Assembly: GCA_046350055.1 (NCBI GenBank)
Contig: JAXMBC010000001.1
Span: forward strand, 1,214,660 to 1,278,659
DNA: 64,000 nt
Reading direction: 5' to 3'
Source of the DNA: Gemmatales bacterium
GTDB lineage: Bacteria > Planctomycetota > Planctomycetia > Gemmatales > HRBIN36
Below, in pieces: positions 40,093-60,233 of this stretch. Numbering within the stretch: position 1 is the stretch's first letter; every line of letters begins with the position of its first letter. The notes under the pieces are model-generated. The model ran no database searches. It was given only the letters and a program-made list of their open reading frames with translations, and was not told the DNA's origin. A program made the translations under genes and the position numbers.

Positions 40093-40656
40093 TTACGGAT
40101 GTACTTTGTAACTCTGCCAGCGCGCCGATGTCCCCAGCGTACCGCTCCATTGTTCAACATAGCCACGATCAAGCATGCTGCCGCGCTGCAGGATTAGCCC
40201 TCGAATATCTTCCGCATCCTTGGCGCGTTCCGAGAAGAGCTTCAGCAAGATGATATCTTCCGCACTGGCAACACGAATGCTGAGGCCATTCAGTTGAATA
40301 TACCTGGCTCGCTGCATGATCGATTCAGCCCAGTCACCATCGACTGCGATCATGTCAATAGTGACAAGTCGTTGTTCTACCTTGATATGTGAGCGGAGGA
40401 TGTACATGTGCGGAAATGGCAATTGCTCGGGTTCAAACACAAAGAATGCCCTGCCATCCTTGACCAGTGCTTCCTGCAGAACGGTCCGATCCATGGCGAC
40501 AATGAAATCGACATCCGAGGTGCTGCGCGGCTGACCATAGACTGCCAGCGCCATCCCACCGATTAGAGCGAAAGGCACTTGATGACTTGAGAGAAAACTA
40601 CTTGCTACTTTGAGCGATTCGATCAAATCCGAATGCTTCAGGTTTGAGGAGTCCAT
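40093..40656 (-). CDS. nucleotidyltransferase-fold protein (MNT/DUF6036-like)
   Basis: It has IGGMALAVYGQPRSTSDVDFIV, which fits the GG...G..R.T.D.D NTase signature. Confidence 0.55.
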   Translation of the reverse strand: MDSSNLKHSDLIESLKVASSFLSSHQVPFALIGGMALAVYGQPRSTSDVDFIVAMDRTVLQEALVKDGRAFFVFEPEQLPFPHMYILRSHIKVEQRLVTIDMIAVDGDWAESIMQRARYIQLNGLSIRVASAEDIILLKLFSERAKDAEDIRGLILQRGSMLDRGYVEQWSGTLGTSARWQSYKVHP

Positions 40657-45965: not shown

Positions 45966-46048
45966 CCGATATCCCAGTTGTACAGGTGCAATCTGCCGGG
46001 GTCCTGCAAGGGTTCGATTTCTTTGCCACGGTAACTATCCTACCTCCT

Positions 46049-48826
46049 ATGGCACGTTACTCCATCGGCATCGATCTCGGCACCACCAACTGCGCCCTGG
46101 CTGCAGTGGAGATGGTCAAGCGCAAGCATGATGTGCTGCCGGTGCCCATCGAACAACTCGTTGCACCAGGAGAGGTGGCAACGAGACCGCTGTTGCCCTC
46201 CTTCCTCTACCTGCCCAGCGACCATGAACTGCCTGCCGGGGCGATGGTGTTGCCCTGGGATGCCGAGCGGAAGTATCTGGTGGGCGAAGCGGCTCGGAAC
46301 TGGGGGGCCAAGGTTGCCGGGCGGCTCGTCACTTCCGCCAAGAGCTGGCTCTGTCACGATGGTGTCGATCGCCAGGCTGCCATCCTGCCATGGGGCGGCC
46401 CGGCAGACGTGCCCAAGGTATCCGCCGTCGATGCCTCCACCCGTTATCTGCAGCACCTCGCGCAGGCATGGAACCACAGCCAGCGGAACGAGAAGACCCC
46501 GGCCCGTTTCGAAGAGCAGCAGATCACCCTCACCGTGCCAGCCTCGTTCGACGACGTCGCCCGGCAACTGACTGCCGAGGCAGCCCGTCGCGCAGGCTTC
46601 CTCCATGTCACCCTGCTCGAGGAACCGCAGGCGGCGTTCTATGCCTGGATCGCCCAGGCCGAGCGCGATCGCCGGCGCAAGCAACCGCTCGAAGAAGGCA
46701 TGACCTGTCTTGTCGCCGATGTCGGCGGTGGCACCACCGATTTCAGCCTGATCGACTGTGTCGCCGAGGATGGCAGTCTCGGCTTTGTGCGCCGGGCCGT
46801 AGGCGATCATCTGCTGCTCGGTGGCGACAACATGGATCTCGCCCTCGCCCATCGCATGGAAGAGAAGCTGGGCACCGGGCAACTTGATGCCGGGCGGTTC
46901 GCCCAGCTGGTGCAGGCCTGTCGGGCAGCAAAAGAAACGCTGCTGAGCGAAGGTGGTCCCAGCGAGTGCCCGGTCACGGTCGTGGGTCGGGGCCGGTCGG
47001 TGGTGGGAGCTGCGCTGACGACCACGCTCACTCGCCGCGAGGTGGAGGAGCACATCCTCGATGGCTTCTTCCCCCTGGTGCCCAGCGACAGCGAGCCGCA
47101 GCGGGCCAAGAGCGCCGGCATCCACGAGATGGGCCTGCCCTTCGTGAGCGATGCCGCCATCACCAGGCACCTCGCCAGCTTCCTCCGCCAGCACGAGGTG
47201 ACGCCCGAGAAGCCCCCGGCAGCCATCCTCTTCAACGGTGGCGTTTTCACTCCCACCATCCTGCGTGAACGCTTCCTCGCCGTGATGAAGCAGTGGTTTG
47301 GCTCCGAGTGGGAGCCCCTGGTGCTCAACACGCCATCGCTCGATCTGGCGGTAGCCATCGGGGCGGCTTACTTCGGCAGGCAGCGCGAATACGGCGGGCG
47401 GGCCATCGCCGGCGGTCTGGCCCGGTCGTACTACATCGCCATTGCCGATGCTGGTGACACGGCTACGTCACACCAGATGCTCTGCGTGGTGCCGCAGCAC
47501 ATGGAGGAAGGAAGCACCATTGATCTGGAGAAGCCGGTGCTGGAGCTGTCGCTGGGGCAGCCGGTGCAGTTTCCCCTCTACACTTCCACGGTGCGAGGCA
47601 AGGACAAGGCAGGCAAGCTGCTGTCGATCCCGGACAAGCACCTGCTCAAGCTCGCTCCATTGCAGACGGTACTCCGAGGCGGCAAACGAGCCGGCGTGAA
47701 GGGGGTCCCGGTGATGCTAACGAGCACACTGACACCGGTGGGCACGCTGGAACTCTCGCTGGTGGCGCAAAACAGCCCGCAGCGCTGGCGGCTCGAGTTC
47801 AACACCCGCGCGGTGGCAGGCAGTGCTGCGGAACCGGCCAGCGACGAGACGGAAACTGTCAGTCACCTAGATCAACCACCGGAACAGTCCTTCCCCGAAG
47901 ACCGCATCGAGTCGGCCCTCAGCGTCATGCGGGAAGTCTACTCTCATGCAAACGAAGACGCGGCCCGGCAACTCACCAAAGAGTGGGAACAACGGCTCGA
48001 GGCCAGCCGCCGCGATTGGCCCTCATCCCTCTGTCGCCGCCTGGCCGATGGGCTGATCGAGATCGCCGAGCAGCGTCGCCGGTCGCTGCCGCATCTGTCC
48101 CGGTGGTACAACCTCACGGGCTACTGCCTCCGGCCTGGCTATGGGGATAGTCGCGACCGCTTCCGCGTTGAGCAACTCTGGAAGCTGCTCTGTGCGCCGG
48201 GCAAGACCAGCGAAGGCGGCGCCGACTTCTGGATCCTCTGGCGACGCCTGAGTGGCGGCCTGACACCGAACTGGCAGATGACCCTGCTCGACCGCCTGCG
48301 TCCGGTGCTGCTCGCGGGCAAGAGCGCCATCAAGCCCAACAACAACGAGCTGGCAGAGATGTGGCGGGCCGCTGCAAGTCTGGAACGCCTCGAACCCAAA
48401 GTAAAGGGTCTGCTGGCAGAGCCACTGTTGAAGCAATACCGCCGACCGCCAGTGGCCCACTATGCCCCCTGGGCGCTGGCCCGTCTGGGTTCACGGGCCA
48501 TGCTCTATGCACCCATCAACCATGTAGTGAGTGCTGAGATGGTCAGCCCGTGGATTGAACAGCTGTTGCCCTATCAGCCAGTTCATGAATCGGACCGCAG
48601 AAGCTGGCAATGGACGCTGACAACCATGAGCCGGCGCATCGGCGTACGTGGTTTGGACATTGACGAAGGATTGCGGACAACAGTGTTAGCCACGCTCAAG
48701 CAGTATCACGCCCCGGAGCGCTATTTGCATCTGGTAGCCGAGTTGAGCACCCTGGAAAGGGAGGAAGAGCAACAGATGTTCGGGGATGAGCTGCCGCTGG
48801 GTCTCAAGGTGATGGCTACTGGTTGA
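46049..48826 (+). CDS. Hsp70-family ATPase with a long uncharacterised C-terminal extension
   Basis: It has MARYSIGIDLGTTNCALA and DVGGGTTDFSLI. The start was moved from the track position 45986. Confidence 0.75.
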   Translation: MARYSIGIDLGTTNCALAAVEMVKRKHDVLPVPIEQLVAPGEVATRPLLPSFLYLPSDHELPAGAMVLPWDAERKYLVGEAARNWGAKVAGRLVTSAKSWLCHDGVDRQAAILPWGGPADVPKVSAVDASTRYLQHLAQAWNHSQRNEKTPARFEEQQITLTVPASFDDVARQLTAEAARRAGFLHVTLLEEPQAAFYAWIAQAERDRRRKQPLEEGMTCLVADVGGGTTDFSLIDCVAEDGSLGFVRRAVGDHLLLGGDNMDLALAHRMEEKLGTGQLDAGRFAQLVQACRAAKETLLSEGGPSECPVTVVGRGRSVVGAALTTTLTRREVEEHILDGFFPLVPSDSEPQRAKSAGIHEMGLPFVSDAAITRHLASFLRQHEVTPEKPPAAILFNGGVFTPTILRERFLAVMKQWFGSEWEPLVLNTPSLDLAVAIGAAYFGRQREYGGRAIAGGLARSYYIAIADAGDTATSHQMLCVVPQHMEEGSTIDLEKPVLELSLGQPVQFPLYTSTVRGKDKAGKLLSIPDKHLLKLAPLQTVLRGGKRAGVKGVPVMLTSTLTPVGTLELSLVAQNSPQRWRLEFNTRAVAGSAAEPASDETETVSHLDQPPEQSFPEDRIESALSVMREVYSHANEDAARQLTKEWEQRLEASRRDWPSSLCRRLADGLIEIAEQRRRSLPHLSRWYNLTGYCLRPGYGDSRDRFRVEQLWKLLCAPGKTSEGGADFWILWRRLSGGLTPNWQMTLLDRLRPVLLAGKSAIKPNNNELAEMWRAAASLERLEPKVKGLLAEPLLKQYRRPPVAHYAPWALARLGSRAMLYAPINHVVSAEMVSPWIEQLLPYQPVHESDRRSWQWTLTTMSRRIGVRGLDIDEGLRTTVLATLKQYHAPERYLHLVAELSTLEREEEQQMFGDELPLGLKVMATG

Positions 48827-49006: not shown

Positions 49007-50377
49007 ATGCACCGCTGGCAAGGATGCCTGTTACTCCTCATCGCTGGGCCGTTATGGGCTCAGGAATGGCGTCCTGTCTCGCAAATACCGGCGGAGCCGA
49101 CTGCCCCTGTCATCAAACTGGGCAAGCCACGGCTGACTCGCAGCGAAACTCCCGAACTGGTAGCCCAGCCACTGCCTCGGGAATCCATCAAGTATCAATC
49201 CACTCGGTACAACGATCTGGCCAGCGTGCCCGAACCAGTCTTTGGCGGCCAGCCACTCAACCTGCTGCAAACCCGCTACCAGGGGCCGGGCAGTGCTGCC
49301 GAAGAAGCATTCAACTGCGGCCAGGTTCCCGGCTCAGGCGGCGGAGCAGCACCCCCTGCTGGAGCACCTGCTCCATACTACGGTCAGACTGCTCCTCCCC
49401 CCGGTGCTGCTCCGGGTGCCCCTGCACCGTACTACGGCCAGCCAGGGGCTCCTCCACCGGGCGCCCCGGCTTCCAGCACTACACCCTGGTATCAGCCCGT
49501 CAAAGACTGCTGGAACCGCATCTTCGGTGGCGGCAGTTCCAATAACGGCATACCTGGCACCTGGGATGCCCGCAGCGATCAGGGCTTCAAGGACTTCATT
49601 TCGCCCGTCAGCAACCCGACCTACTTCGAAGACCCCCGTTCGCTCACCGAGTTCCGCTTCATTGGCACCTACCAGAAATCGCCTGACGACAACATCCTGA
49701 TGGATGGCGGTCAGATCCTCGACTTCAACTTCCAGGGACGCATCAGCATCAATGACAACTGGTCGCTGACGTTGCAGCGGCTGGGCTTCTCCAACGTCAA
49801 ACCCGGCAGTGCTGCTCTCGGTGGCTACTCCGGCGGCACCGGGTTTAACGATCTGCAAATGGGCGTCAAGTACACCTTCCTGCGTGATACCCGCAGCGAA
49901 AGCCTGCTCGCTGCGGGCGTGAGCTTTGAGCTGCCCATCGGCAGCAGCAATGTCCTCTCGGGCAGTGGCACCGGCATCACCCCCTACCTGAGCTACGGCC
50001 AGGGCTTCATGGATAACTGGCACCTGCTTGCTGCAGGCGGTTACCGCTTCGGCATCTCCAGCGGCAGCAGCGACTTCCTCTTCCTCAGTGGCCACCTCGA
50101 TTATGGCTTCTTCAAGCGGTTCTATCCGCTCGTCGAAATGAACTGGTACTACTACACCGGCAACGGCGACCGCCAGCCAGTCGACTTTGAAGGTGGCGAT
50201 CTCAAGAATATCGGCGCCAGTGGCGTGGCAGGCAGAAGCCTCGTCACACTGGCCGGTGGCTTCCGCTTCAAGTTCAGCGAATCGCTCCAGGCCGGTATCA
50301 TCTACGAGATGCCTGTCGTCGGCACCGATATGCTGGAAAAGTACCGGGTGATGTTGGATTTCATCATTCGGTTCTAA
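49007..50377 (+). CDS. putative outer-membrane beta-barrel protein with a Pro/Gly/Ala-rich linker
   Basis: It has a signal peptide (MHRWQGCLLLLIAGPLWAQ) and an alternating-pattern C-terminal half ending ...LDFIIRF. Confidence 0.45.
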   Translation: MHRWQGCLLLLIAGPLWAQEWRPVSQIPAEPTAPVIKLGKPRLTRSETPELVAQPLPRESIKYQSTRYNDLASVPEPVFGGQPLNLLQTRYQGPGSAAEEAFNCGQVPGSGGGAAPPAGAPAPYYGQTAPPPGAAPGAPAPYYGQPGAPPPGAPASSTTPWYQPVKDCWNRIFGGGSSNNGIPGTWDARSDQGFKDFISPVSNPTYFEDPRSLTEFRFIGTYQKSPDDNILMDGGQILDFNFQGRISINDNWSLTLQRLGFSNVKPGSAALGGYSGGTGFNDLQMGVKYTFLRDTRSESLLAAGVSFELPIGSSNVLSGSGTGITPYLSYGQGFMDNWHLLAAGGYRFGISSGSSDFLFLSGHLDYGFFKRFYPLVEMNWYYYTGNGDRQPVDFEGGDLKNIGASGVAGRSLVTLAGGFRFKFSESLQAGIIYEMPVVGTDMLEKYRVMLDFIIRF

Positions 50378-50447
50378 GGTTGTAACGTCATTATTTAGAG
50401 CCTCACCAACGATTTGATGAGGCCATCACATTTAAAGTTTAGAGCGT

Positions 50448-50636
50448 TTATTTAGATTGCTGGCTAGATTCTTGCTGAGTAACCTTCAATTGCGAACTAA
50501 CTACTGGAGTTCGTGCAACGTTTACAGTGGGCTTTGCTGAGTTTTCCAATAGGTTCTGCTTCCACTCAGGCCAAGTTTGCACGACTCTCTGTGCAATCTC
50601 CTGTTGTCTCTTAAATTCGTCCCTGCTCATCATCAT
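50448..50636 (-). CDS. small hypothetical protein (62 aa), translationally coupled to the deaminase gene
   Basis: The sequence ATGATGATGA overlaps the deaminase stop codon. The gene lies in the AT-rich islet. Confidence 0.4.
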   Translation of the reverse strand: MMMSRDEFKRQQEIAQRVVQTWPEWKQNLLENSAKPTVNVARTPVVSSQLKVTQQESSQQSK

Positions 50637-51542
50637 GCCTCCTGTACTCCAAGCATTTCGGATTGGAGCTTACCAAAGAGTCTACAAGCATTTGCCTCAT
50701 CTTCCAGATATGAGGTGGGCTTCATTTGTATCCTCAGTCGTGATTTCTCGATAGTCCAATCAACTTTAGTGCCATCTGAGTTCTTCCTAACAATATCGTA
50801 ACTCGCTCCAAGGTTCATTGAGAATAAGTCGAAGAACCTTCGAGGACCAATTCCAACAAATGCGTCGAATTTAACCCTTGACGATTCTTCCGCTAATCCA
50901 GGTGGGCAGATTGCGTCTTCATGGAAGTCAAGGGCTTTGCTTTTTGGATATGGCTCGACATAAACAACCCGCTTAACCCCTGCTGCAATAATATGCTTAG
51001 CACAGTTGTGGCATGGAAAGGTCGTGCAGTACAATGTTGTACCTATGGTTGACAAACCGTTTCGTGAACAACAAAGAAGTGCCTCCATCTCGGCATGGAC
51101 TACTCTGCCGTACTCAGTCAAGTCACGAAGAGGACTTTCATCCAGCAAGCTCCTCACTTTTGCTTCATCTGCAGCAGGAATCGCAATCTTCAATCTTTCT
51201 ACGATGCGATCGATAATCTCAAGCTGTTCAGCTCTATTTGAATCACCGGCCTTTCGCATATAGTCTCTTCCATTCGGCGTGTCACATATTCTTCTAGTAG
51301 TCAGATCTCTATTGGGCCAATAAAGGCCACCCTGAGCCTTTGGGCAGTCATTTGCACCTGTTGACAATATCTGAGAATCTATTGTAACTACTGCTCCTAC
51401 CTGCCTCGACATATCAGCTGATCTTAACGCAGAAGCAAATGCCATAAACATTGCATGTTCATCGAAGGTTGGCGTGACATAAGGATCACCAAACCATAGC
51501 GATACTATTCTTGTAATATCATGTCTAAGTTGATCGCGATTA

Positions 51543-52389
51543 GGCCGTGTTGACATTGATCTAGCATAAGTTGGGGCAGAGCGGTAAACCAGTGAAGTCC
51601 AAGGAAGGATTTTCTGGAGAAAGATCATGCGACGATTCGAGCTCACGGATGAGCAGTGGGAGAAGATCAAGCACCTGCTGCCAGGCAAAGAAGGCGATTC
51701 AGGACGTACGGCCAAGGACAATCGACTCTTTATTGATGCTGTGTTGTGGACGGCCCGCACCGGTGCTCAGTGGCGTGATTTGCCTGCTCGCTTTGGTAAC
51801 TGGAACAGCATCTATCAGCGGTTCAATCGCTGGGCCAAGGCGGGGCGTTGGCAGGAAATCTTTGAGCGAATGCAAGATCCTGATCTGGAATGGCTGCTGA
51901 TCGATTCGACGATTGTCAGGGCCCACCAGCATGCAGCAGGAGCCCTGAAAAAAGGGGAGACCAAGCGTTGGGACGATCTCGGGGAGGACTGGGAACCAAG
52001 GTCCACATTGCCTGCGAAGGGCTTGGGTTGCCAGTTCGCTTCCTGCTAACTGGTGGCGAAGTGCATGATGTCACGCAGGCGTCAGCCTTGATCGATGGAA
52101 TCTCCGCGGAACAAGTCATCGCCGACAAGGGCTACGATAGCGATGCAGTCGTTGAGAAGATTGAGGAGCAAGGCGGTACGGCCATTATTCCTTCCAAGAG
52201 CAACCGCAAAATGCCTCGTCCCCATGACCGCGCGACCTATCAGGAACGGAATCGGATTGAGCGTTTGATCAATCGTCTGAAACAATGTCGCCGGATCGCG
52301 ACTCGCTACGACAAAACCAGTCGCAACTTCCTGGCATTCCTCTACTTAGCGGGCACCATGCTCTGGCTGGCGTAATTGTCAACACGGCC
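51543..52389 (+). mobile_element. IS5-family (IS427-like) insertion sequence, 847 bp
   Basis: The 13-bp terminal inverted repeats are perfect: GGCCGTGTTGACA (51543-51555) and TGTCAACACGGCC (52377-52389). They are flanked by a TA direct duplication (51541-51542 and 52390-52391). Confidence 0.85.
51627..52375 (+). CDS. IS5-family DDE transposase, made from two frames joined by a -1 frameshift at an A6G run
   Basis: OrfA reads MRRFELTDEQWEKIKHLLPG...IVRAHQHAAGALKK. The slippery run GAAAAAAG is at 51947-51954. The downstream frame reads GDQALGRSRGGLGTKVHIA...DKGYDSD...RNRIERLINRLKQCRRIATRYDK. Confidence 0.8.
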
Positions 52390-53064
52390 TAGATGATATC
52401 CTGACAAAAAAGTCTGCTAAATGAAATGTTTTGTTCACACGTTGGCCATGAACGACATTTGTTTCATCGCTATCACGAGCAATCAGGCTTCTTGCTTGAT
52501 CTTCGCTCATTCCTCGATCAGTCTGAAGGTGAACGAGCCGCCGAGACTCATCCGCATGAACCCCAATCAATACGAACCCATGTGGATAAATCCGGCGTAA
52601 TTGCGCAACCTCTTCTGGCCGTTTCAGCGAATTAATAATGTAGGCTGTTTTTGGGGATGGTTTGGATTGGTCATTCTCCTTGTCTCGCTTTGCAAAAATC
52701 ATCGATGCAGCACCTAGTGCTAATATTTCACATTTGCCACTTGCCTCCCTTGCACGATTACCCGCATCCATGAGGTTACTAATGCGCATAAACTGACATG
52801 AACCATGGTCAGGTACAGTACACAAAGTCGGAATAACCTCTTCGGATACTTTCATTGAAATGACATTGTAGCCCGCTAGGTTCAATCGCTCCTTCAGCAA
52901 TTCAGTAATCAAAGTAGTTTCAGTACCAACTGCACTAACCAAGCCAATAACAAGTTCGGAATCGAAATCTGTCGTCATGTTATCAATCCTTTTAGTGAAC
53001 ATTCCATAGTATATTTGCAAAAATGAAGTAATGCAAAAAAACATATGCATATTAACGGTTACTT

Positions 53065-56370
<3,306 letters not shown>

Positions 56371-56981: not shown

Positions 56982-58769
56982 ATGAACACATTACACCGAT
57001 TTACTCGTATCGATTTCGAACGATTCAAGGCTTTCGAGAAATTCAGTATACACCTGCGTCATTTCAACATACTTGTGGGCCCAAATAACGCTGGGAAGTC
57101 TACCATCTTAACAGCCTTCCGTATCTTGGCGGCGGCAATGAGAAAGGCAGTTGTCCGAAGGCCTGAAGTAGTCATGGGCCCAAAGGGTGAAACATTAGGT
57201 TATCACGTTGACATAGGTGCCATATCCGTAAGTGAGGAGAACATCTTTTTTAATTATGATGACACTGAACCGGCATCCGTCAGATTTTCACTATCGAATG
57301 GCAGAAGGCTGGTACTCTATTTTCCAGCAGAAACAAGAAGATGTAATTTAATATGCGAAAGTAGTGATCGTTGTGACAATCCTACGGCCTTTAAGAAACA
57401 GTATAGTTGTTCAATTGGCTTTGTGCCTGTTTTGGGGCCCGTCGAACATTTCGAACCACTCTACGAGAAGGAAGCAGCACGTCAGGCACTATTCAACTAC
57501 CATGCAGCAAGGAACTTCAGAAATATCTGGTATCATTATCCGGAGCAATTTTCAATTTTCCGTGAAACACTTAATCGAACTTGGCCAGGCATGGATGTTA
57601 AGCCACCTGAGATTGAGCGTTCGTTAGCGAGGCCTCGGCTCGTTATGTTTTGCCCAGAGCAGAGAATCCCTCGCGAAATCTGCTGGTCTGGGTTTGGGTT
57701 TCAAGTTTGGTGTCAAATGTTGACTCATATTATTCAATCTAAAGAAGCGTCATTGTTTCTAATTGATGAGCCTGACATCTATTTGCATGCAGAACTACAA
57801 CGTCAACTACTTGTATTACTTCGCAATCTCGGCCCTGATATCCTTATCGCTACTCATTCTACAGAAATCATTACCGAGTCCGAGCCAGATGATATTGTGC
57901 TTATTAATAAGGAACGCAAAAGCGCACGGCGGCTTAAGAACCCTGCAGAATTATTCGAGGTATTTCATCTATTGGGATCGAATCTGAATCCAATACTAAC
58001 GCAACTTGCCAGAACTCGTAAGGCTGTATTTGTGGAGGGAAAAGACTTCCAGATACTTGGGCGATTTGCGCAAAAGCTGAAGAAATCAAAAACCAGTGTA
58101 CGTGGAGGATTTGCAGTGATCCCAGTAGAAGGATTTAACCCACAAAAGATCAAGAGCTTAAAACACGGGATGGAGACGACTTTAGGTGGCAAGATTCTTG
58201 GAGCAGCAATACTTGATAAAGACTATCGATCCAATGAAGAATGCAGTTCTATTGAAAAAGAAACTGCGTTGTTTTGCGATATCGTATCGATCCATAAACG
58301 CAAAGAGATTGAGAACTTTTTGCTAGTTCCTAGCGCCATTGATCGAGCTGCACAGCGTCGTGTCTCAGATCAAGCAGCCCGATCAGGTAAGAAGGTGGAA
58401 TATAATGCATGTGCGCAGAAAGTACTAGAACAGTTTGCTGCTGAAAAAAAAGAGGCTGTAATTGCCCAGTATCTTTCAGGTAGACGAGCATTCGAAAGAG
58501 CGCGAAGCACAGGCTCTCACGATGCAACTTTGAGTGAATCTGTATTGAAGGAGTGTGGACGTGCATGGCAATCTTTCGATTCTCAAATGCTTCTTGTACC
58601 TGGAAAAGAGGCTTTGAGCGCAGTCAACCAGCAATTACAGAAAGATTATGGAGTAAGCATCACGCCCACAGCTATTATCGAAGCAATGCGTGTTGATGAA
58701 GTACCTTCCGAAATGACAGTGCTTATCGAGACGATCGAGCAATTTGCAAATCGAAGTATTACTAACTAA
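56982..58769 (+). CDS. OLD-family ABC-ATPase / Toprim nuclease-like protein (class-1 OLD or fused PARIS-like architecture)
   Basis: It has Walker A GPNNAGKST, Walker B LIDEPDIYLH and an H-loop IATHS. The C-terminal half carries Toprim-like VFVEGKDF (Glu) and ILDKDY (DxD). The gene is AT-rich. Confidence 0.65.
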   Translation: MNTLHRFTRIDFERFKAFEKFSIHLRHFNILVGPNNAGKSTILTAFRILAAAMRKAVVRRPEVVMGPKGETLGYHVDIGAISVSEENIFFNYDDTEPASVRFSLSNGRRLVLYFPAETRRCNLICESSDRCDNPTAFKKQYSCSIGFVPVLGPVEHFEPLYEKEAARQALFNYHAARNFRNIWYHYPEQFSIFRETLNRTWPGMDVKPPEIERSLARPRLVMFCPEQRIPREICWSGFGFQVWCQMLTHIIQSKEASLFLIDEPDIYLHAELQRQLLVLLRNLGPDILIATHSTEIITESEPDDIVLINKERKSARRLKNPAELFEVFHLLGSNLNPILTQLARTRKAVFVEGKDFQILGRFAQKLKKSKTSVRGGFAVIPVEGFNPQKIKSLKHGMETTLGGKILGAAILDKDYRSNEECSSIEKETALFCDIVSIHKRKEIENFLLVPSAIDRAAQRRVSDQAARSGKKVEYNACAQKVLEQFAAEKKEAVIAQYLSGRRAFERARSTGSHDATLSESVLKECGRAWQSFDSQMLLVPGKEALSAVNQQLQKDYGVSITPTAIIEAMRVDEVPSEMTVLIETIEQFANRSITN

Positions 58770-59123: not shown

Positions 59124-60233
59124 ATGTCCCTCGTACAACCCATCCAGCCGATTCACTTCGACCAGAAGTGGTTCTATCCGCAACTGCTACCCCAGTCGTG
59201 CGTCATCCTGCTCGATGGCGCCACCGGCGTGGGCAAATCCATGCTCTGTGCCCACCTGGCCACCCAGTTCTCCCACCACTTCCAGGAAGAGAAACGGGCC
59301 GCGACCCTCTTCGTCTCCGCCATGGAGCAGGAGATCAGCCGCAACCGTCACCTCGCCCACCTGAAATGCGACACCCGCTTCGTCGGCCAGGGAAACTTCC
59401 TCGACATGTTCAACTTCAGCAAAGAGTGTGGCGAGGATTTCCAGGCCTGTTTCCGCGCCTACCTCGATACCCTCATCTCCGAAGAGAAGCCCCTCGTTCT
59501 CGTCATCGACGACATCGAGGAGATGATCGGCAGTCTGAATCAGCACATTTCGAAGGACTCACAGGGCCGCTGGTGGGCCATCCTCGGCGAGATGGCTATC
59601 AAGCACCGCATCACCATCATCGTCACCCGCAGAAACGGCATGAACGCCGCCCGCCACTACGGCACCTTCAACCGGGCCGGCACCGAGTTCTGCGACTTCA
59701 TCCTCACCATGCACTGGCATCCCTACGACCCCAACAAGCGGGTCATCTCCATCGCCAAGAACCGCTACGGCGAGCTCGGCAACCAGTGGCACCTGAACCT
59801 CGACGGGGGCAAGCCGCAGTTGCAGTTCGTGGAACGCCATGAACATGTACGCCCATCCAAGTGCCCGCAAACCTGGGTCAGCGACCCCGGCATGGTCCAG
59901 GAAATGAGTCTGGCTGTCGAGGAGATCCGCGAGTTCATGCACGGCGAAGGGACGGTCACCACCGCCCTCAAGGAGCACATGAAGAAGAAGAACTACTCCG
60001 AACGCACCGTCAGACAGGCCACCGCACGCATGGGGCTGCGACTCGTCCGGCAAGGCCAGCAGTGGTGGTACCTGCCCACCGACTTCATGCGAACCGAGGC
60101 CATCCATAAGGAAGTCGCCGCAGCGCGCACACGTGCTGCCGGGGTGGTTCCCCAGGCACTACCTGAAACACAAAGCCCTGGTAAATCCGAAGACTCTACC
60201 CCTTGCACACGCGATGCCGAGGTCGCCGCGTGA
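59124..60233 (+). CDS. RecA/RepA-like P-loop ATPase (AAA_25-type) with a C-terminal wHTH-like region
   Basis: It has Walker A DGATGVGKS and Walker B LVLVIDDIEE, and reads ...ISIAKNRYGE. This type is typical of integrative-element or plasmid replication/primase modules. Confidence 0.55.
   Translation: MSLVQPIQPIHFDQKWFYPQLLPQSCVILLDGATGVGKSMLCAHLATQFSHHFQEEKRAATLFVSAMEQEISRNRHLAHLKCDTRFVGQGNFLDMFNFSKECGEDFQACFRAYLDTLISEEKPLVLVIDDIEEMIGSLNQHISKDSQGRWWAILGEMAIKHRITIIVTRRNGMNAARHYGTFNRAGTEFCDFILTMHWHPYDPNKRVISIAKNRYGELGNQWHLNLDGGKPQLQFVERHEHVRPSKCPQTWVSDPGMVQEMSLAVEEIREFMHGEGTVTTALKEHMKKKNYSERTVRQATARMGLRLVRQGQQWWYLPTDFMRTEAIHKEVAAARTRAAGVVPQALPETQSPGKSEDSTPCTRDAEVAA

What the first reader, a model, noticed from the sequence alone, without database searches (positions are those of the whole stretch)
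50448..52978. Anti-phage-type dCTP deaminase inactivated by an IS5-family insertion in an AT-rich islet next to carB
The two minus-strand fragments join in frame (...FFVRISS|NRDQLRHD...) once the 847-bp IS and one copy of the TA duplication are removed.

The N-half (ELVIGLVSAVGT...) resembles the nucleotide-kinase-like domain of defensive dCTP deaminases. The C-half carries the zinc-deaminase motifs HAEMEAL and PCHNCAKH.

The whole 50.4-53.06 kb segment is visibly AT-richer than its flanks, consistent with horizontal acquisition. The perfect IRs and intact TSD suggest a recent insertion. The host therefore probably lost this nucleotide-depletion defence only lately.
Basis: partly seen in the sequence, partly recalled or inferred. 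Interest (0 to 1): 0.6.

Follow-up and report, generated by a model that had tools for sequence, protein, structure and literature searches.

The report
IS-split anti-phage dCTP deaminase operon
A horizontally acquired phage-defence gene (a dCTP deaminase that starves viruses of a DNA building block) has been cut in two by a jumping gene, and it is followed by a conserved, unannotated 60-residue protein gene that also occurs alone in phages and may be the enzyme's missing regulator.

Summary

**The insertion.** An 847-bp IS5-family element lies at 51543-52389. It has 13-bp perfect inverted repeats and a TA target duplication. It sits inside codon 197 of a minus-strand gene.

**The gene.** Removing the IS and one TA restores a 498-aa ORF. 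That ORF:
- passes NCBIfam's equivalog model 'anti-phage dCTP deaminase' (457 bits, cutoff 400);
- matches PADLOC 'dCTPase' (535 bits);
- keeps all family-invariant residues;
- models as an adenylate-kinase-like N-domain plus a dCMP-deaminase-like C-domain.

**The setting.** The islet is 43% GC against 60% in its flanks. It is absent downstream of carB in two relatives whose carB is 92% identical. No intact allele exists in the protein collection searched; the best hit is 69% identical.

So this is an ordinary, recently pseudogenised member of a known defence family.

A 60-aa ORF (50448-50630, minus strand) is translationally coupled to the deaminase stop codon.
- It follows nearly every deaminase that is at least 49% identical to this one, in Planctomycetota, a Vibrio plasmid and viral contigs.
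- It follows none of the deaminases at 38% identity or less. Three of those five (E. coli and Photobacterium plasmids) instead carry a small ORF in the upstream AvcI position.
- It matches no curated family.
- Stand-alone copies sit in phage genomes.

I propose, as inference only, that it is a protein regulator or antitoxin of the deaminase.

The parts
52391..52978 (-). 5' fragment of the dCTP deaminase gene: codons 1-196, the kinase-like N-domain. In the present sequence it runs on into the IS and ends ...RISS-RPC*.
   Evidence: ORF list and sequence. Repaired ORF. NF041025 and PADLOC dCTPase matches span this half. The AlphaFold N-domain matches adenylate-kinase-like folds.
51543..52389 (+). 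IS5-family insertion sequence of IS427-like organisation, 847 bp, with 13-bp perfect terminal inverted repeats. It carries two overlapping transposase ORFs (51627..52049 and 51890..52375). They join across an A6G run at 51948-51954 to give a 249-aa transposase.
   Evidence: inverted repeats. (DUF4096, DDE_Tnp_1, NF033580 on both ORFs). (fused ORF). (plasmid relatives are at most 56% identical and always match in two pieces). (a ~95% similar IS end at four contig ends of another Gemmatales MAG).
51541..51542 (.). Left copy of the TA target-site duplication. The target was T-TA-G.
   Evidence: The insertion sites of the related IS read CTA|, CTA|, TTA| and |TAG.
52390..52391 (.). Right copy of the TA target-site duplication.
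50633..51541 (-). 3' fragment of the dCTP deaminase gene: codons 197-498 plus the stop codon. It holds the zinc deaminase domain (HAE 345-347, PCxxC 372-376) and a C-terminal extension.
   Evidence: (dCMP_cyt_deam_1 over residues 222-391). The public record annotates it as a 331-aa 'dCMP deaminase family protein' that starts inside the IS (P0017).
50448..50630 (-). Conserved small ORF of 60 aa (up to 62 aa if the first ATG, at 50636, is used). It carries the invariant motif V..WP.WK and overlaps the deaminase stop codon (ATGA). An AGGAGG sequence lies 7 nt before the third ATG. It is the second gene of the operon and is intact.
   Evidence: Homologues lie directly after deaminase homologues in L001, L002, L004, L005, L076-L079, L131 and 12 loci found through the small ORF. 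Variation falls on third codon positions. There is no Pfam, NCBIfam or PADLOC hit. The HMM search finds 1062 clusters. AlphaFold predicts a helical hairpin plus a disordered tail.
53008..53037 (-). Promoter-like site (TTTGCA-18-TATACT) in the 86-bp AT-rich spacer between the carB stop codon and the deaminase ATG.
   Evidence: This is a consensus match only, and the count is no higher than in shuffled sequence. Spacer sequence.
50400..50423 (.). 10-bp inverted repeat with a 4-nt loop, lying between the small ORF and the convergent upstream gene. It is a possible terminator hairpin. One pair is G-U on the minus-strand transcript.
   Evidence: Read directly from the sequence. The terminator scan did not call it, so confidence is low.

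Best explanation
**What it is.** The 2.7-kb AT-rich islet between carB and a convergent gene is a horizontally acquired two-gene defence operon. Gene 1 encodes a 498-aa anti-phage dCTP deaminase of the AvcD/DcdV and Tal et al. family.

**How the family works.** It has an N-terminal P-loop-kinase-like domain and a C-terminal zinc deaminase domain. In characterised relatives the enzyme is switched on during infection. It converts dCTP and dCMP to dUTP and dUMP, which starves phage DNA synthesis.

**What happened here.** An 847-bp IS5-family element inserted at a TTAG site within codon 197, at the boundary between the two domains, and duplicated TA.
- The gene is now split into a 196-aa kinase-like stub and a promoter-less deaminase fragment.
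- Both domains on one protein are required for function in the studied homologues, so the defence is very probably dead.
- No other lesion has accumulated, so the insertion is evolutionarily recent.

**Gene 2.** It encodes a 60-aa helical-hairpin protein with a WPxWK motif, is translationally coupled to gene 1, and is a conserved partner in this subclade. This locus has no room for the AvcI/DifV RNA antitoxin of the E. coli and V. cholerae-type loci, which lies upstream of the gene. I therefore infer that the small protein regulates the deaminase, most likely by inhibiting it. That step is inference, not demonstration.
For: **Shown**
- IS anatomy and exact frame restoration.
- Gapless junction and retention of all invariant residues against 11 homologues.
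- NF041025 at 456.9 bits against a cutoff of 400. PADLOC dCTPase at 535 bits. Pfam dCMP_cyt_deam_1.
- Two-domain fold: kinase-like plus dCMP deaminase.
- 33-53% identity over more than 95% of the length to RefSeq-annotated 'anti-phage dCTP deaminase' genes on Vibrio, E. coli and Klebsiella plasmids.
- IS5-family transposase with an A6G frameshift site.
- GC of 43% against 60%.
- Relatives with 92% identical carB lack the islet. Homologues sit in unrelated neighbourhoods.
- The same junction appears in an independent assembly.
- No intact allele: the best hit is 69% identical.

**From the literature**
- Both domains are needed for defence and toxicity (bioRxiv 10.1101/2021.04.26.441389; bioRxiv 10.1101/2021.03.31.437871).

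**Evidence on the partner gene**
- Synteny.
- Coding-type substitution pattern.
- Only 86 bp upstream and no Rfam hit.
- Deaminases at 38% identity or less lack it. Three of those five have a small ORF in the AvcI position instead.
- Stand-alone copies in phages.
Against: - No experiment shows that this particular protein deaminates dCTP or defends. Family membership rests on profile scores and a model of only moderate confidence (mean pLDDT 69).
- The N-domain motif IGLVSAVGTE is not a canonical Walker A, because it lacks the lysine. This is a trait of the whole family.
- 'Recent' is qualitative.
- I could not count IS copies in the host genome, because that genome is not in the searchable collection.
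- An in-frame ATG on the antisense strand of the IS end gives a 331-aa ORF (P0017), so some expression of a deaminase-only fragment cannot be excluded.
- For the small protein there is no binding, toxicity or structural evidence. About two thirds of the small-ORF loci with enough flank have no adjacent deaminase, so its role may be broader than regulating this enzyme.
Confidence: 0.85

Rival explanations
1. The gene is a housekeeping or competence-type dCMP deaminase (ComEB/Dcd-like) involved in pyrimidine salvage, not a defence gene. Its loss would then be metabolically neutral.
For: Pfam sees only the generic dCMP_cyt_deam_1 domain. The public record calls the fragment a 'dCMP deaminase family protein'. 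PDB sequence hits are all dCMP deaminases.
Against: ComEB scores 61.8 bits against a cutoff of 219.45, and only over residues 342-396. The protein is 498 aa with a kinase-like N-domain that housekeeping enzymes lack. It passes the equivalog model for the defensive family and the PADLOC model. It lies in an AT-rich islet that is not syntenic among relatives.
Confidence: 0.03
2. The split gene is still functional. Either the 331-aa ORF that starts inside the IS is expressed as a stand-alone deaminase, or the two fragments reassemble non-covalently. On this reading the IS rewired the system rather than killed it.
For: An in-frame ATG on the antisense strand of the IS end yields the annotated 331-aa product. 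The break lies between the two predicted domains. Both fragments are undamaged.
Against: Point mutants in either domain abolish defence or toxicity in the E. coli and V. cholerae enzymes, which argues that both domains are needed in one active protein. No outward promoter was detected at the IS end. The N-fragment acquires a foreign RPC tail and a stop codon.
Confidence: 0.07
3. The small WPxWK ORF is not a partner of the deaminase. It would be an independent mobile 'moron' or a phage-derived gene that often lands next to defence genes, or a transcription factor for something else.
For: The family has about 1062 clusters. Many members lie in phage-like regions without a deaminase. One close deaminase homologue (L003) lacks it. 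It is sometimes a domain of larger proteins.
Against: It occupies the same position and orientation, with the stop and start codons overlapping or 2-10 nt apart where I read the junction, after deaminases that are only 49-69% identical to each other. These come from Planctomycetota, a Vibrio plasmid and viral contigs. It is absent after all five deaminases at 38% identity or less. Such conserved coupling is typical of functional operon partners.
Confidence: 0.25
4. The IS insertion is an assembly artefact: a chimeric join of a repeat into the gene.
For: The source is a metagenome-assembled genome. IS elements are classic sites of misassembly.
Against: The TA duplication is exact and the frame is restored precisely. 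Both junctions are present in the window. The left junction is reproduced base for base in an independent Logan short-read contig. The target TTAG matches the YTA(G) sites of the related IS copies.
Confidence: 0.02

Closest known systems
Anti-phage dCTP deaminase (Tal et al., E. coli AW1.7 enzyme; DefenseFinder/PADLOC 'dCTPdeaminase'; NCBIfam NF041025)
   Same: One polypeptide with a kinase-like N-domain and a zinc cytidine-deaminase C-domain. HAE and PCxxC motifs are present. It scores above the curated equivalog cutoff and matches the PADLOC model. It lies in a horizontally acquired islet.
   Different: It is only about 33% identical to the E. coli and Klebsiella plasmid enzymes. It is 498 aa, against 576 aa for the studied enzyme. 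It is interrupted by an IS. It is followed by a conserved small protein gene that is not part of the described single-gene system.
AvcID / DcdV-DifV toxin-antitoxin defence system (Vibrio cholerae VSP-I and homologues)
   Same: The enzyme family is the same (P-loop-kinase-like plus dCMP-deaminase domains), and the locus is a two-component operon. In that system the enzyme is held inactive by a labile partner until infection.
   Different: AvcI/DifV is a 152-174-nt RNA encoded immediately 5' of the gene in the same orientation. Here only 86 bp separate carB from the start codon, and there is no Rfam hit. The second component is instead a 60-aa protein encoded 3' of the gene. The E. coli and Photobacterium loci with an upstream small ORF lack the downstream WPxWK ORF.
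IS5-family insertion sequences of the IS427 group (group features recalled from ISfinder, not checked here)
   Same: The element is about 850 bp, with short terminal inverted repeats. It has two overlapping ORFs (DUF4096 plus DDE_Tnp_1) joined by slippage on an A-run. It makes a 2-bp TA duplication at a YTAR-like site.
   Different: It is at most 56% identical in protein to any plasmid-borne relative, so it is a new IS. Close copies (~95% over the end) were seen only in another Gemmatales MAG.
Housekeeping and phage dCMP deaminases (ComEB, T4 Cd, S-TIM5, PBCV-1 bi-DCD)
   Same: The catalytic core fold and zinc ligands match.
   Different: Those enzymes are single-domain proteins of 130-190 aa. 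This protein has an additional 215-aa kinase-like domain, insertions within the deaminase domain and a C-terminal extension. It fails the ComEB cutoff.

Membership tests
Anti-phage dCTP deaminase (NF041025 / PADLOC dCTPase / Tal et al. criteria) | Score above the curated whole-protein cutoff of the equivalog model | tested here: met
   456.9 bits against a cutoff of 400. Residues 8-439 align to model positions 1-433 of 437. PADLOC dCTPase scores 535 bits. This holds only for the repaired ORF.
Anti-phage dCTP deaminase (NF041025 / PADLOC dCTPase / Tal et al. criteria) | N-terminal kinase-like domain and C-terminal cytidine deaminase domain on one protein of more than 350 aa (criterion quoted) | tested here: met
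   The repaired ORF is 498 aa. Foldseek matches the N-domain to 3lw7 and dephospho-CoA kinases, and the C-domain to dCMP deaminases. The model confidence is moderate.
Anti-phage dCTP deaminase (NF041025 / PADLOC dCTPase / Tal et al. criteria) | Zinc-binding and catalytic motifs (H-A-E, P-C-x-x-C) intact | tested here: met
   H345, E347, C373 and C376 lie in invariant columns.
Anti-phage dCTP deaminase (NF041025 / PADLOC dCTPase / Tal et al. criteria) | Intact, expressible gene | tested here: not met
   An 847-bp IS interrupts codon 197. It is a member by descent and is now a pseudogene.
Anti-phage dCTP deaminase (NF041025 / PADLOC dCTPase / Tal et al. criteria) | Location among other defence genes | tested here: inconclusive
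   An OLD/AAA_21-type ATPase islet lies on the other side of carB, and an AbiEii-like gene lies 10 kb away. The immediate neighbours are housekeeping genes.
Anti-phage dCTP deaminase (NF041025 / PADLOC dCTPase / Tal et al. criteria) | dCTP depletion on infection and protection against phage | not testable with these tools
   This requires expression of the repaired gene, nucleotide measurements and plaque assays.
AvcID (type III-like toxin-antitoxin with RNA antitoxin) | A 150-175-nt non-coding RNA (AvcI/DifV) encoded immediately 5' of the deaminase gene in the same orientation | tested here: not met
   Only 86 bp lie between the carB stop codon and the ATG, and a promoter-like site leaves about 30 nt of leader. 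There is no Rfam match and no upstream small ORF. AvcI has no conserved sequence, so absence is judged from the available space.
AvcID (type III-like toxin-antitoxin with RNA antitoxin) | AvcD-type toxin (P-loop-kinase-like plus dCMP-deaminase domains) | tested here: met
   See the rows above. It is 33% identical over 96% of its length to E. coli plasmid enzymes that have the upstream small ORF.
IS5 family (IS427-like group) | DDE transposase of IS5 type | tested here: met
   NF033580 scores 140.5 bits (ORF A) and 166.2 bits (ORF B) against a cutoff of 110. Pfam finds DUF4096 and DDE_Tnp_1.
IS5 family (IS427-like group) | Terminal inverted repeats and a short TA target duplication; length 800-1000 bp; two ORFs joined by frameshifting | tested here: met
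   13-bp perfect inverted repeats, a TA duplication and a length of 847 bp. An A6G run lies in the ORF overlap and yields a 249-aa fusion. Relatives also match in two pieces. The group definition is from memory of ISfinder.
Housekeeping dCMP deaminase / ComEB | Score above the TIGR02571 cutoff; single-domain protein of about 150 aa | tested here: not met
   61.8 bits against a cutoff of 219.45, over 55 residues only. The protein is 498 aa with two domains.

The most novel reading that the evidence does not exclude
The 60-aa WPxWK protein is a protein inhibitor (antitoxin) of the dCTP deaminase. In this large subclade it would take the place of the AvcI RNA. The stand-alone homologues carried by phages would then be antitoxin mimics that switch the defence off. 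One such copy lies between the terminase and portal genes in L010 and is very similar in sequence to deaminase-linked copies. If so, this defines a protein-regulated variant of nucleotide-depletion immunity together with its matching phage counter-defence.
Probability: 0.3. Interest if true: 0.7.

Novelty: new variant of a known kind. Interest (0 to 1): 0.42.

Why it matters
The deaminase itself is one more, now broken, member of a known nucleotide-depletion defence family. It illustrates how quickly defence genes are lost to insertion sequences, and how annotation pipelines mislabel the debris: the 3' fragment is deposited as an intact 'dCMP deaminase family protein'.

The more useful result concerns how these enzymes are kept silent. 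Outside the AvcI RNA of a few Proteobacteria, this is not known. A conserved micro-protein gene tightly coupled to the deaminase, mutually exclusive with the AvcI-type layout in the loci I examined and also carried by phages, gives a concrete, testable candidate for the regulator. It also gives a candidate for a phage counter-measure. RefSeq leaves this gene unannotated even where it annotates the deaminase (the Vibrio nigripulchritudo plasmid).

Tried and rejected
- **AvcI-like RNA.** An Rfam scan at E up to 1 over 50200-53300 found nothing. The upstream spacer is too short.
- **Solved structure of a full-length relative.** The PDB sequence search hit only the zinc-motif stretch of single-domain dCMP deaminases.
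- **Natural deaminase/small-protein fusions, to model a complex.** None among the 120 best homologues. The structure tool takes single chains only, so no complex could be predicted.
- **Fold of the small protein.** No PDB match at E up to 10. PHROG hits were weak and of unknown function.
- **Host genome record.** The look-up of P0017 found nothing on record. The genome-contig scan with the IS end found only a different Gemmatales MAG, so the IS copy number in the host could not be obtained.
- **Islet-flanking direct repeats or att sites.** None convincing.
- **Exact empty site.** The window's carB flanks are not syntenic with the 92%-identical relatives. Only 'islet absent after carB' could be shown, not a precise empty target.
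- **Literature.** I found no paper describing a protein partner or a phage inhibitor of dCTP deaminases.
- **Lost tool.** The scripting machine was lost, so later counts were made with the listing tools and by eye.
Full report
**1. The observation**

The sequence at 51530-51560 and 52370-52400 shows an element bounded by GGCCGTGTTGACA and its exact reverse complement.

- The element spans 51543-52389 and is 847 bp long.
- TA lies on both sides.
- The repeat finder independently reports the 15-nt perfect pair that includes the TA (I4).
- The 13-mer occurs nowhere else in the 64-kb window. The chance expectation is 0.10 matches.
- Removing the element and one TA (849 bp) joins two minus-strand ORF fragments into one 498-aa ORF, MTTDFDSE...FFVRISS|NRDQLRHD...VQEA.
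- The break falls after the first base of codon 197.
- In an alignment with 11 full-length homologues the junction is gapless. Every invariant residue is retained, including H345, E347, C373 and C376.

A separate short-read assembly (Logan SRR26348423) yields a 1610-bp contig that is 100% identical to window 49960-51569. It stops 27 bp inside the IS. The junction is therefore reproducible. A contig break at that point is what a repeated element would cause in a short-read assembly.

**2. Identity of the interrupted gene**

| Test | Result |
|---|---|
| PADLOC 'dCTPase' | E = 8e-161, 535 bits, residues 6-488 |
| NCBIfam NF041025 'anti-phage dCTP deaminase' (equivalog) | 456.9 bits, cutoff 400, residues 8-439 on model positions 1-433 of 437 |
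| NCBIfam ComEB | 61.8 bits, cutoff 219.45 |
| Pfam | only generic dCMP_cyt_deam_1, residues 222-391 |
| PDB by sequence | no full-length relative; dCMP deaminases match the zinc-motif stretch only |
| AlphaFold model | mean pLDDT 69; N-domain 75-90 |
| Foldseek, N-domain | adenylate-kinase-related 3lw7 (TMt 0.82), dephospho-CoA kinases |
| Foldseek, C-domain | human, S. mutans, cyanophage and PBCV-1 dCMP/dCTP deaminases |
| tblastn against plasmids | RefSeq 'anti-phage dCTP deaminase' genes: 52.6% identity (Vibrio nigripulchritudo), about 33% (E. coli, Klebsiella), over more than 95% of the length |

The literature on the characterised enzymes says that both domains are required.
- Kinase-motif and zinc-ligand mutants of the E. 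coli AW1.7 enzyme lose defence and dCTP depletion (bioRxiv 10.1101/2021.04.26.441389).
- Walker A, Walker B and deaminase mutants of V. cholerae DcdV lose toxicity (bioRxiv 10.1101/2021.03.31.437871).

A gene cut between the two domains is therefore very probably inactive. That is an inference.

**3. The insertion sequence**

- ORF A (51627-52049) matches DUF4096 and the first half of NF033580 'IS5 family transposase'.
- ORF B (51890-52375) matches DDE_Tnp_1 and the second half of the same model.
- The two ORFs overlap across an A6G run at 51948-51954.
- Adding one A, or slipping back by one base, fuses them into a 249-aa transposase.
- Plasmid-borne relatives are at most 56% identical and always align in two pieces. 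The two-ORF organisation is therefore native and the transposase looks intact.
- Size, two ORFs and a 2-bp TA duplication fit what I recall of the IS427 group of the IS5 family. That assignment is from memory.

An exact-match scan of one genome per species found the IS end at four contig ends of another Gemmatales MAG. The ends are about 95% identical, each has a different flank, and each insertion is at CTA, TTA or TAG. Close relatives of this IS are therefore multi-copy in the order. The host genome itself was not in that collection, so its copy number remains unknown.

**4. The islet**

GC content by segment:

| Segment | GC |
|---|---|
| Islet without the IS (1838 bp) | 43.3% |
| IS | 54.9% |
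| carB | 60.2% |
| Left neighbouring gene | 60.1% |

- The host is a Gemmatales bacterium: the carB product and the deaminase fragment are 100% identical to proteins of a 5.76-Mb MAG contig.
- In two relatives with 92% identical carB, the gene after carB is a glycosyltransferase followed by maf (L134), or a Bro-N gene followed by those two (L133). Neither has a deaminase there.
- The closest deaminase homologues (56-69% identical) sit in unrelated neighbourhoods.

All of this fits horizontal acquisition. A precise empty site could not be shown, because the window's carB flanks are rearranged relative to those relatives.

No intact allele exists in the 5.8-billion-protein collection. The best full-length hit is 69% identical.

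**5.

A small minus-strand ORF (50448-50636) starts with ATGATGATG overlapping the deaminase TGA. An AGGAGG sequence lies 7 nt before the third ATG, which gives a 60-aa product that aligns with homologues starting MSQ....

*It is a real coding gene and a consistent neighbour.*
- The same ORF follows the deaminase in L001 (4-bp overlap), L002 (10-nt gap), Lacipirellula parvula and Planctopirus limnophila, where it is uncalled.
- V, WP, WK and L are invariant across the alignments.
- Nucleotide differences fall on third codon positions, for example CCT/CCA/CCG, AAG/AAA and AAC/AAT.

*How the linkage splits by deaminase identity.* Loci retrieved through the deaminase divide cleanly:
- At 49% identity or more to this deaminase, all but one locus (L003) carry the small ORF. 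These include four viral or prophage contigs and the Vibrio nigripulchritudo plasmid, where the ORF is unannotated.
- At 38% identity or less, none of five loci carry it.
- Three of those five (two E. coli plasmids and Photobacterium pPHDD1) instead have a small same-strand ORF immediately upstream. This is the arrangement described for AvcI/DifV and its cognates.

*This locus cannot hold an AvcI-type RNA.* Only 86 bp separate the carB stop codon from the deaminase ATG, and there is no Rfam hit.

*The family is large, uncharacterised and also found in phages.*
- There is no Pfam, NCBIfam or PADLOC hit. PHROG hits are weak and of unknown function.
- A full HMM search finds 1062 clusters at E up to 1e-3 and 130 at E up to 1e-10.
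- AlphaFold predicts a helix (residues 3-18), the WPxWK turn, a short helix and a disordered tail. There is no PDB fold match.
- Scans starting from the small protein found 12 loci with a deaminase directly upstream. Many others lie in phage-like regions without one.
- L010 is a 39.6-kb contig in which a copy nearly identical over its first ~40 residues to deaminase-linked ones lies between a gpA-type large terminase and a lambda-type portal.
- L011 places a copy after a DNA methyltransferase. L030 places one before a family-A DNA polymerase.

**6. Mechanism**

*Shown:* the family membership of the deaminase, the IS anatomy, the intactness of all parts other than the interruption, and the conserved operon partner.

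*From the literature:* the enzyme class depletes dCTP and dCMP on infection, needs both domains, and in AvcID is restrained by a labile RNA that is lost when host transcription stops.

*Inferred:*
- The Gemmatales host acquired the two-gene operon and then lost its function to a recent IS hop.
- The small protein is the restraint, or another regulator, in this subclade.
- The phage copies counter it.

The last two steps rest only on synteny, mutual exclusivity with the AvcI layout in about 15 loci, and the presence of phage homologues. I give them about 0.3.

The alternatives are that the small protein is an unrelated mobile gene, or that it is a regulator of something else.

**7. Verdict**

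In itself it is ordinary: a recently pseudogenised member of a known defence family in a Planctomycete MAG, mis-annotated in the public record.

The operon's second gene makes the locus a variant of the known single-gene and RNA-antitoxin architectures. It is the part worth following up.

Noticed in passing
window 56982-58769 (+), islet about 56.8-58.8 kb: A second AT-rich islet (43.8% GC) lies on the other side of carB. It encodes a 595-aa AAA_21/AAA_15 ATPase whose best PADLOC hits are AriAB, NsnB, Old and GajA. It is probably another single-gene defence candidate.
   Followed up: partly
window 50633-51628 (-), public protein P0017: The public record annotates the 3' deaminase fragment as an intact 331-aa 'dCMP deaminase family protein'. 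Its first 28 residues are read from the antisense strand of the IS end. It should be a pseudogene.
   Followed up: yes
L131 3924-4106 (Vibrio nigripulchritudo plasmid NZ_AP027047.1): The WPxWK small ORF overlaps the end of an annotated 'anti-phage dCTP deaminase' but is not annotated in RefSeq. An IS3 element lies 400 bp further on.
   Followed up: yes
L010 3129-3296 (ENA ERZ19036836 scaffold_857, 39.6 kb): A stand-alone copy of the small protein lies between a gpA-type large terminase and a lambda-type portal. No deaminase is present in the 7.3 kb of the contig that I fetched. It is a candidate phage counter-defence gene.
   Followed up: partly
L072-L075 (Gemmatales MAG AMR_MDS_4993, DAOMFV01): Four contigs end about 50 bp into an IS whose end is 92-96% identical to the window's IS. 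Each has a different flank, and the insertions are at CTA, TTA or TAG. This IS lineage is multi-copy in the order.
   Followed up: partly
L133 10391-11209 and L133/L134 6183-6874: In relatives with 92% identical carB, a Bro-N gene is inserted right after carB in one genome, and a PIN/VapB-like pair precedes carB in both. The carB flanks look like a variable cargo spot.
   Followed up: no
window 40093-40656 (-): A 187-aa AbiEii/DUF6036-type nucleotidyltransferase, of the type IV toxin-antitoxin toxin family, lies 10 kb from the islet.
   Followed up: no
window 45986-48826 (+) and 59124-60233 (+): A 946-aa Hsp70-like protein with a DUF3731 'DnaK-related' domain, and a 369-aa AAA_25/KaiC-like ATPase, flank the region. 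Their function is unknown.
   Followed up: no
L132 705-887, L135 1148-1318, L137 1188-1373: E. coli and Photobacterium plasmid dCTP deaminases (33-38% identical to this one) each have a 56-61-aa 'hypothetical protein' ORF immediately upstream on the same strand. This is the position described for AvcI/DifV. None has the downstream WPxWK ORF.
   Followed up: partly
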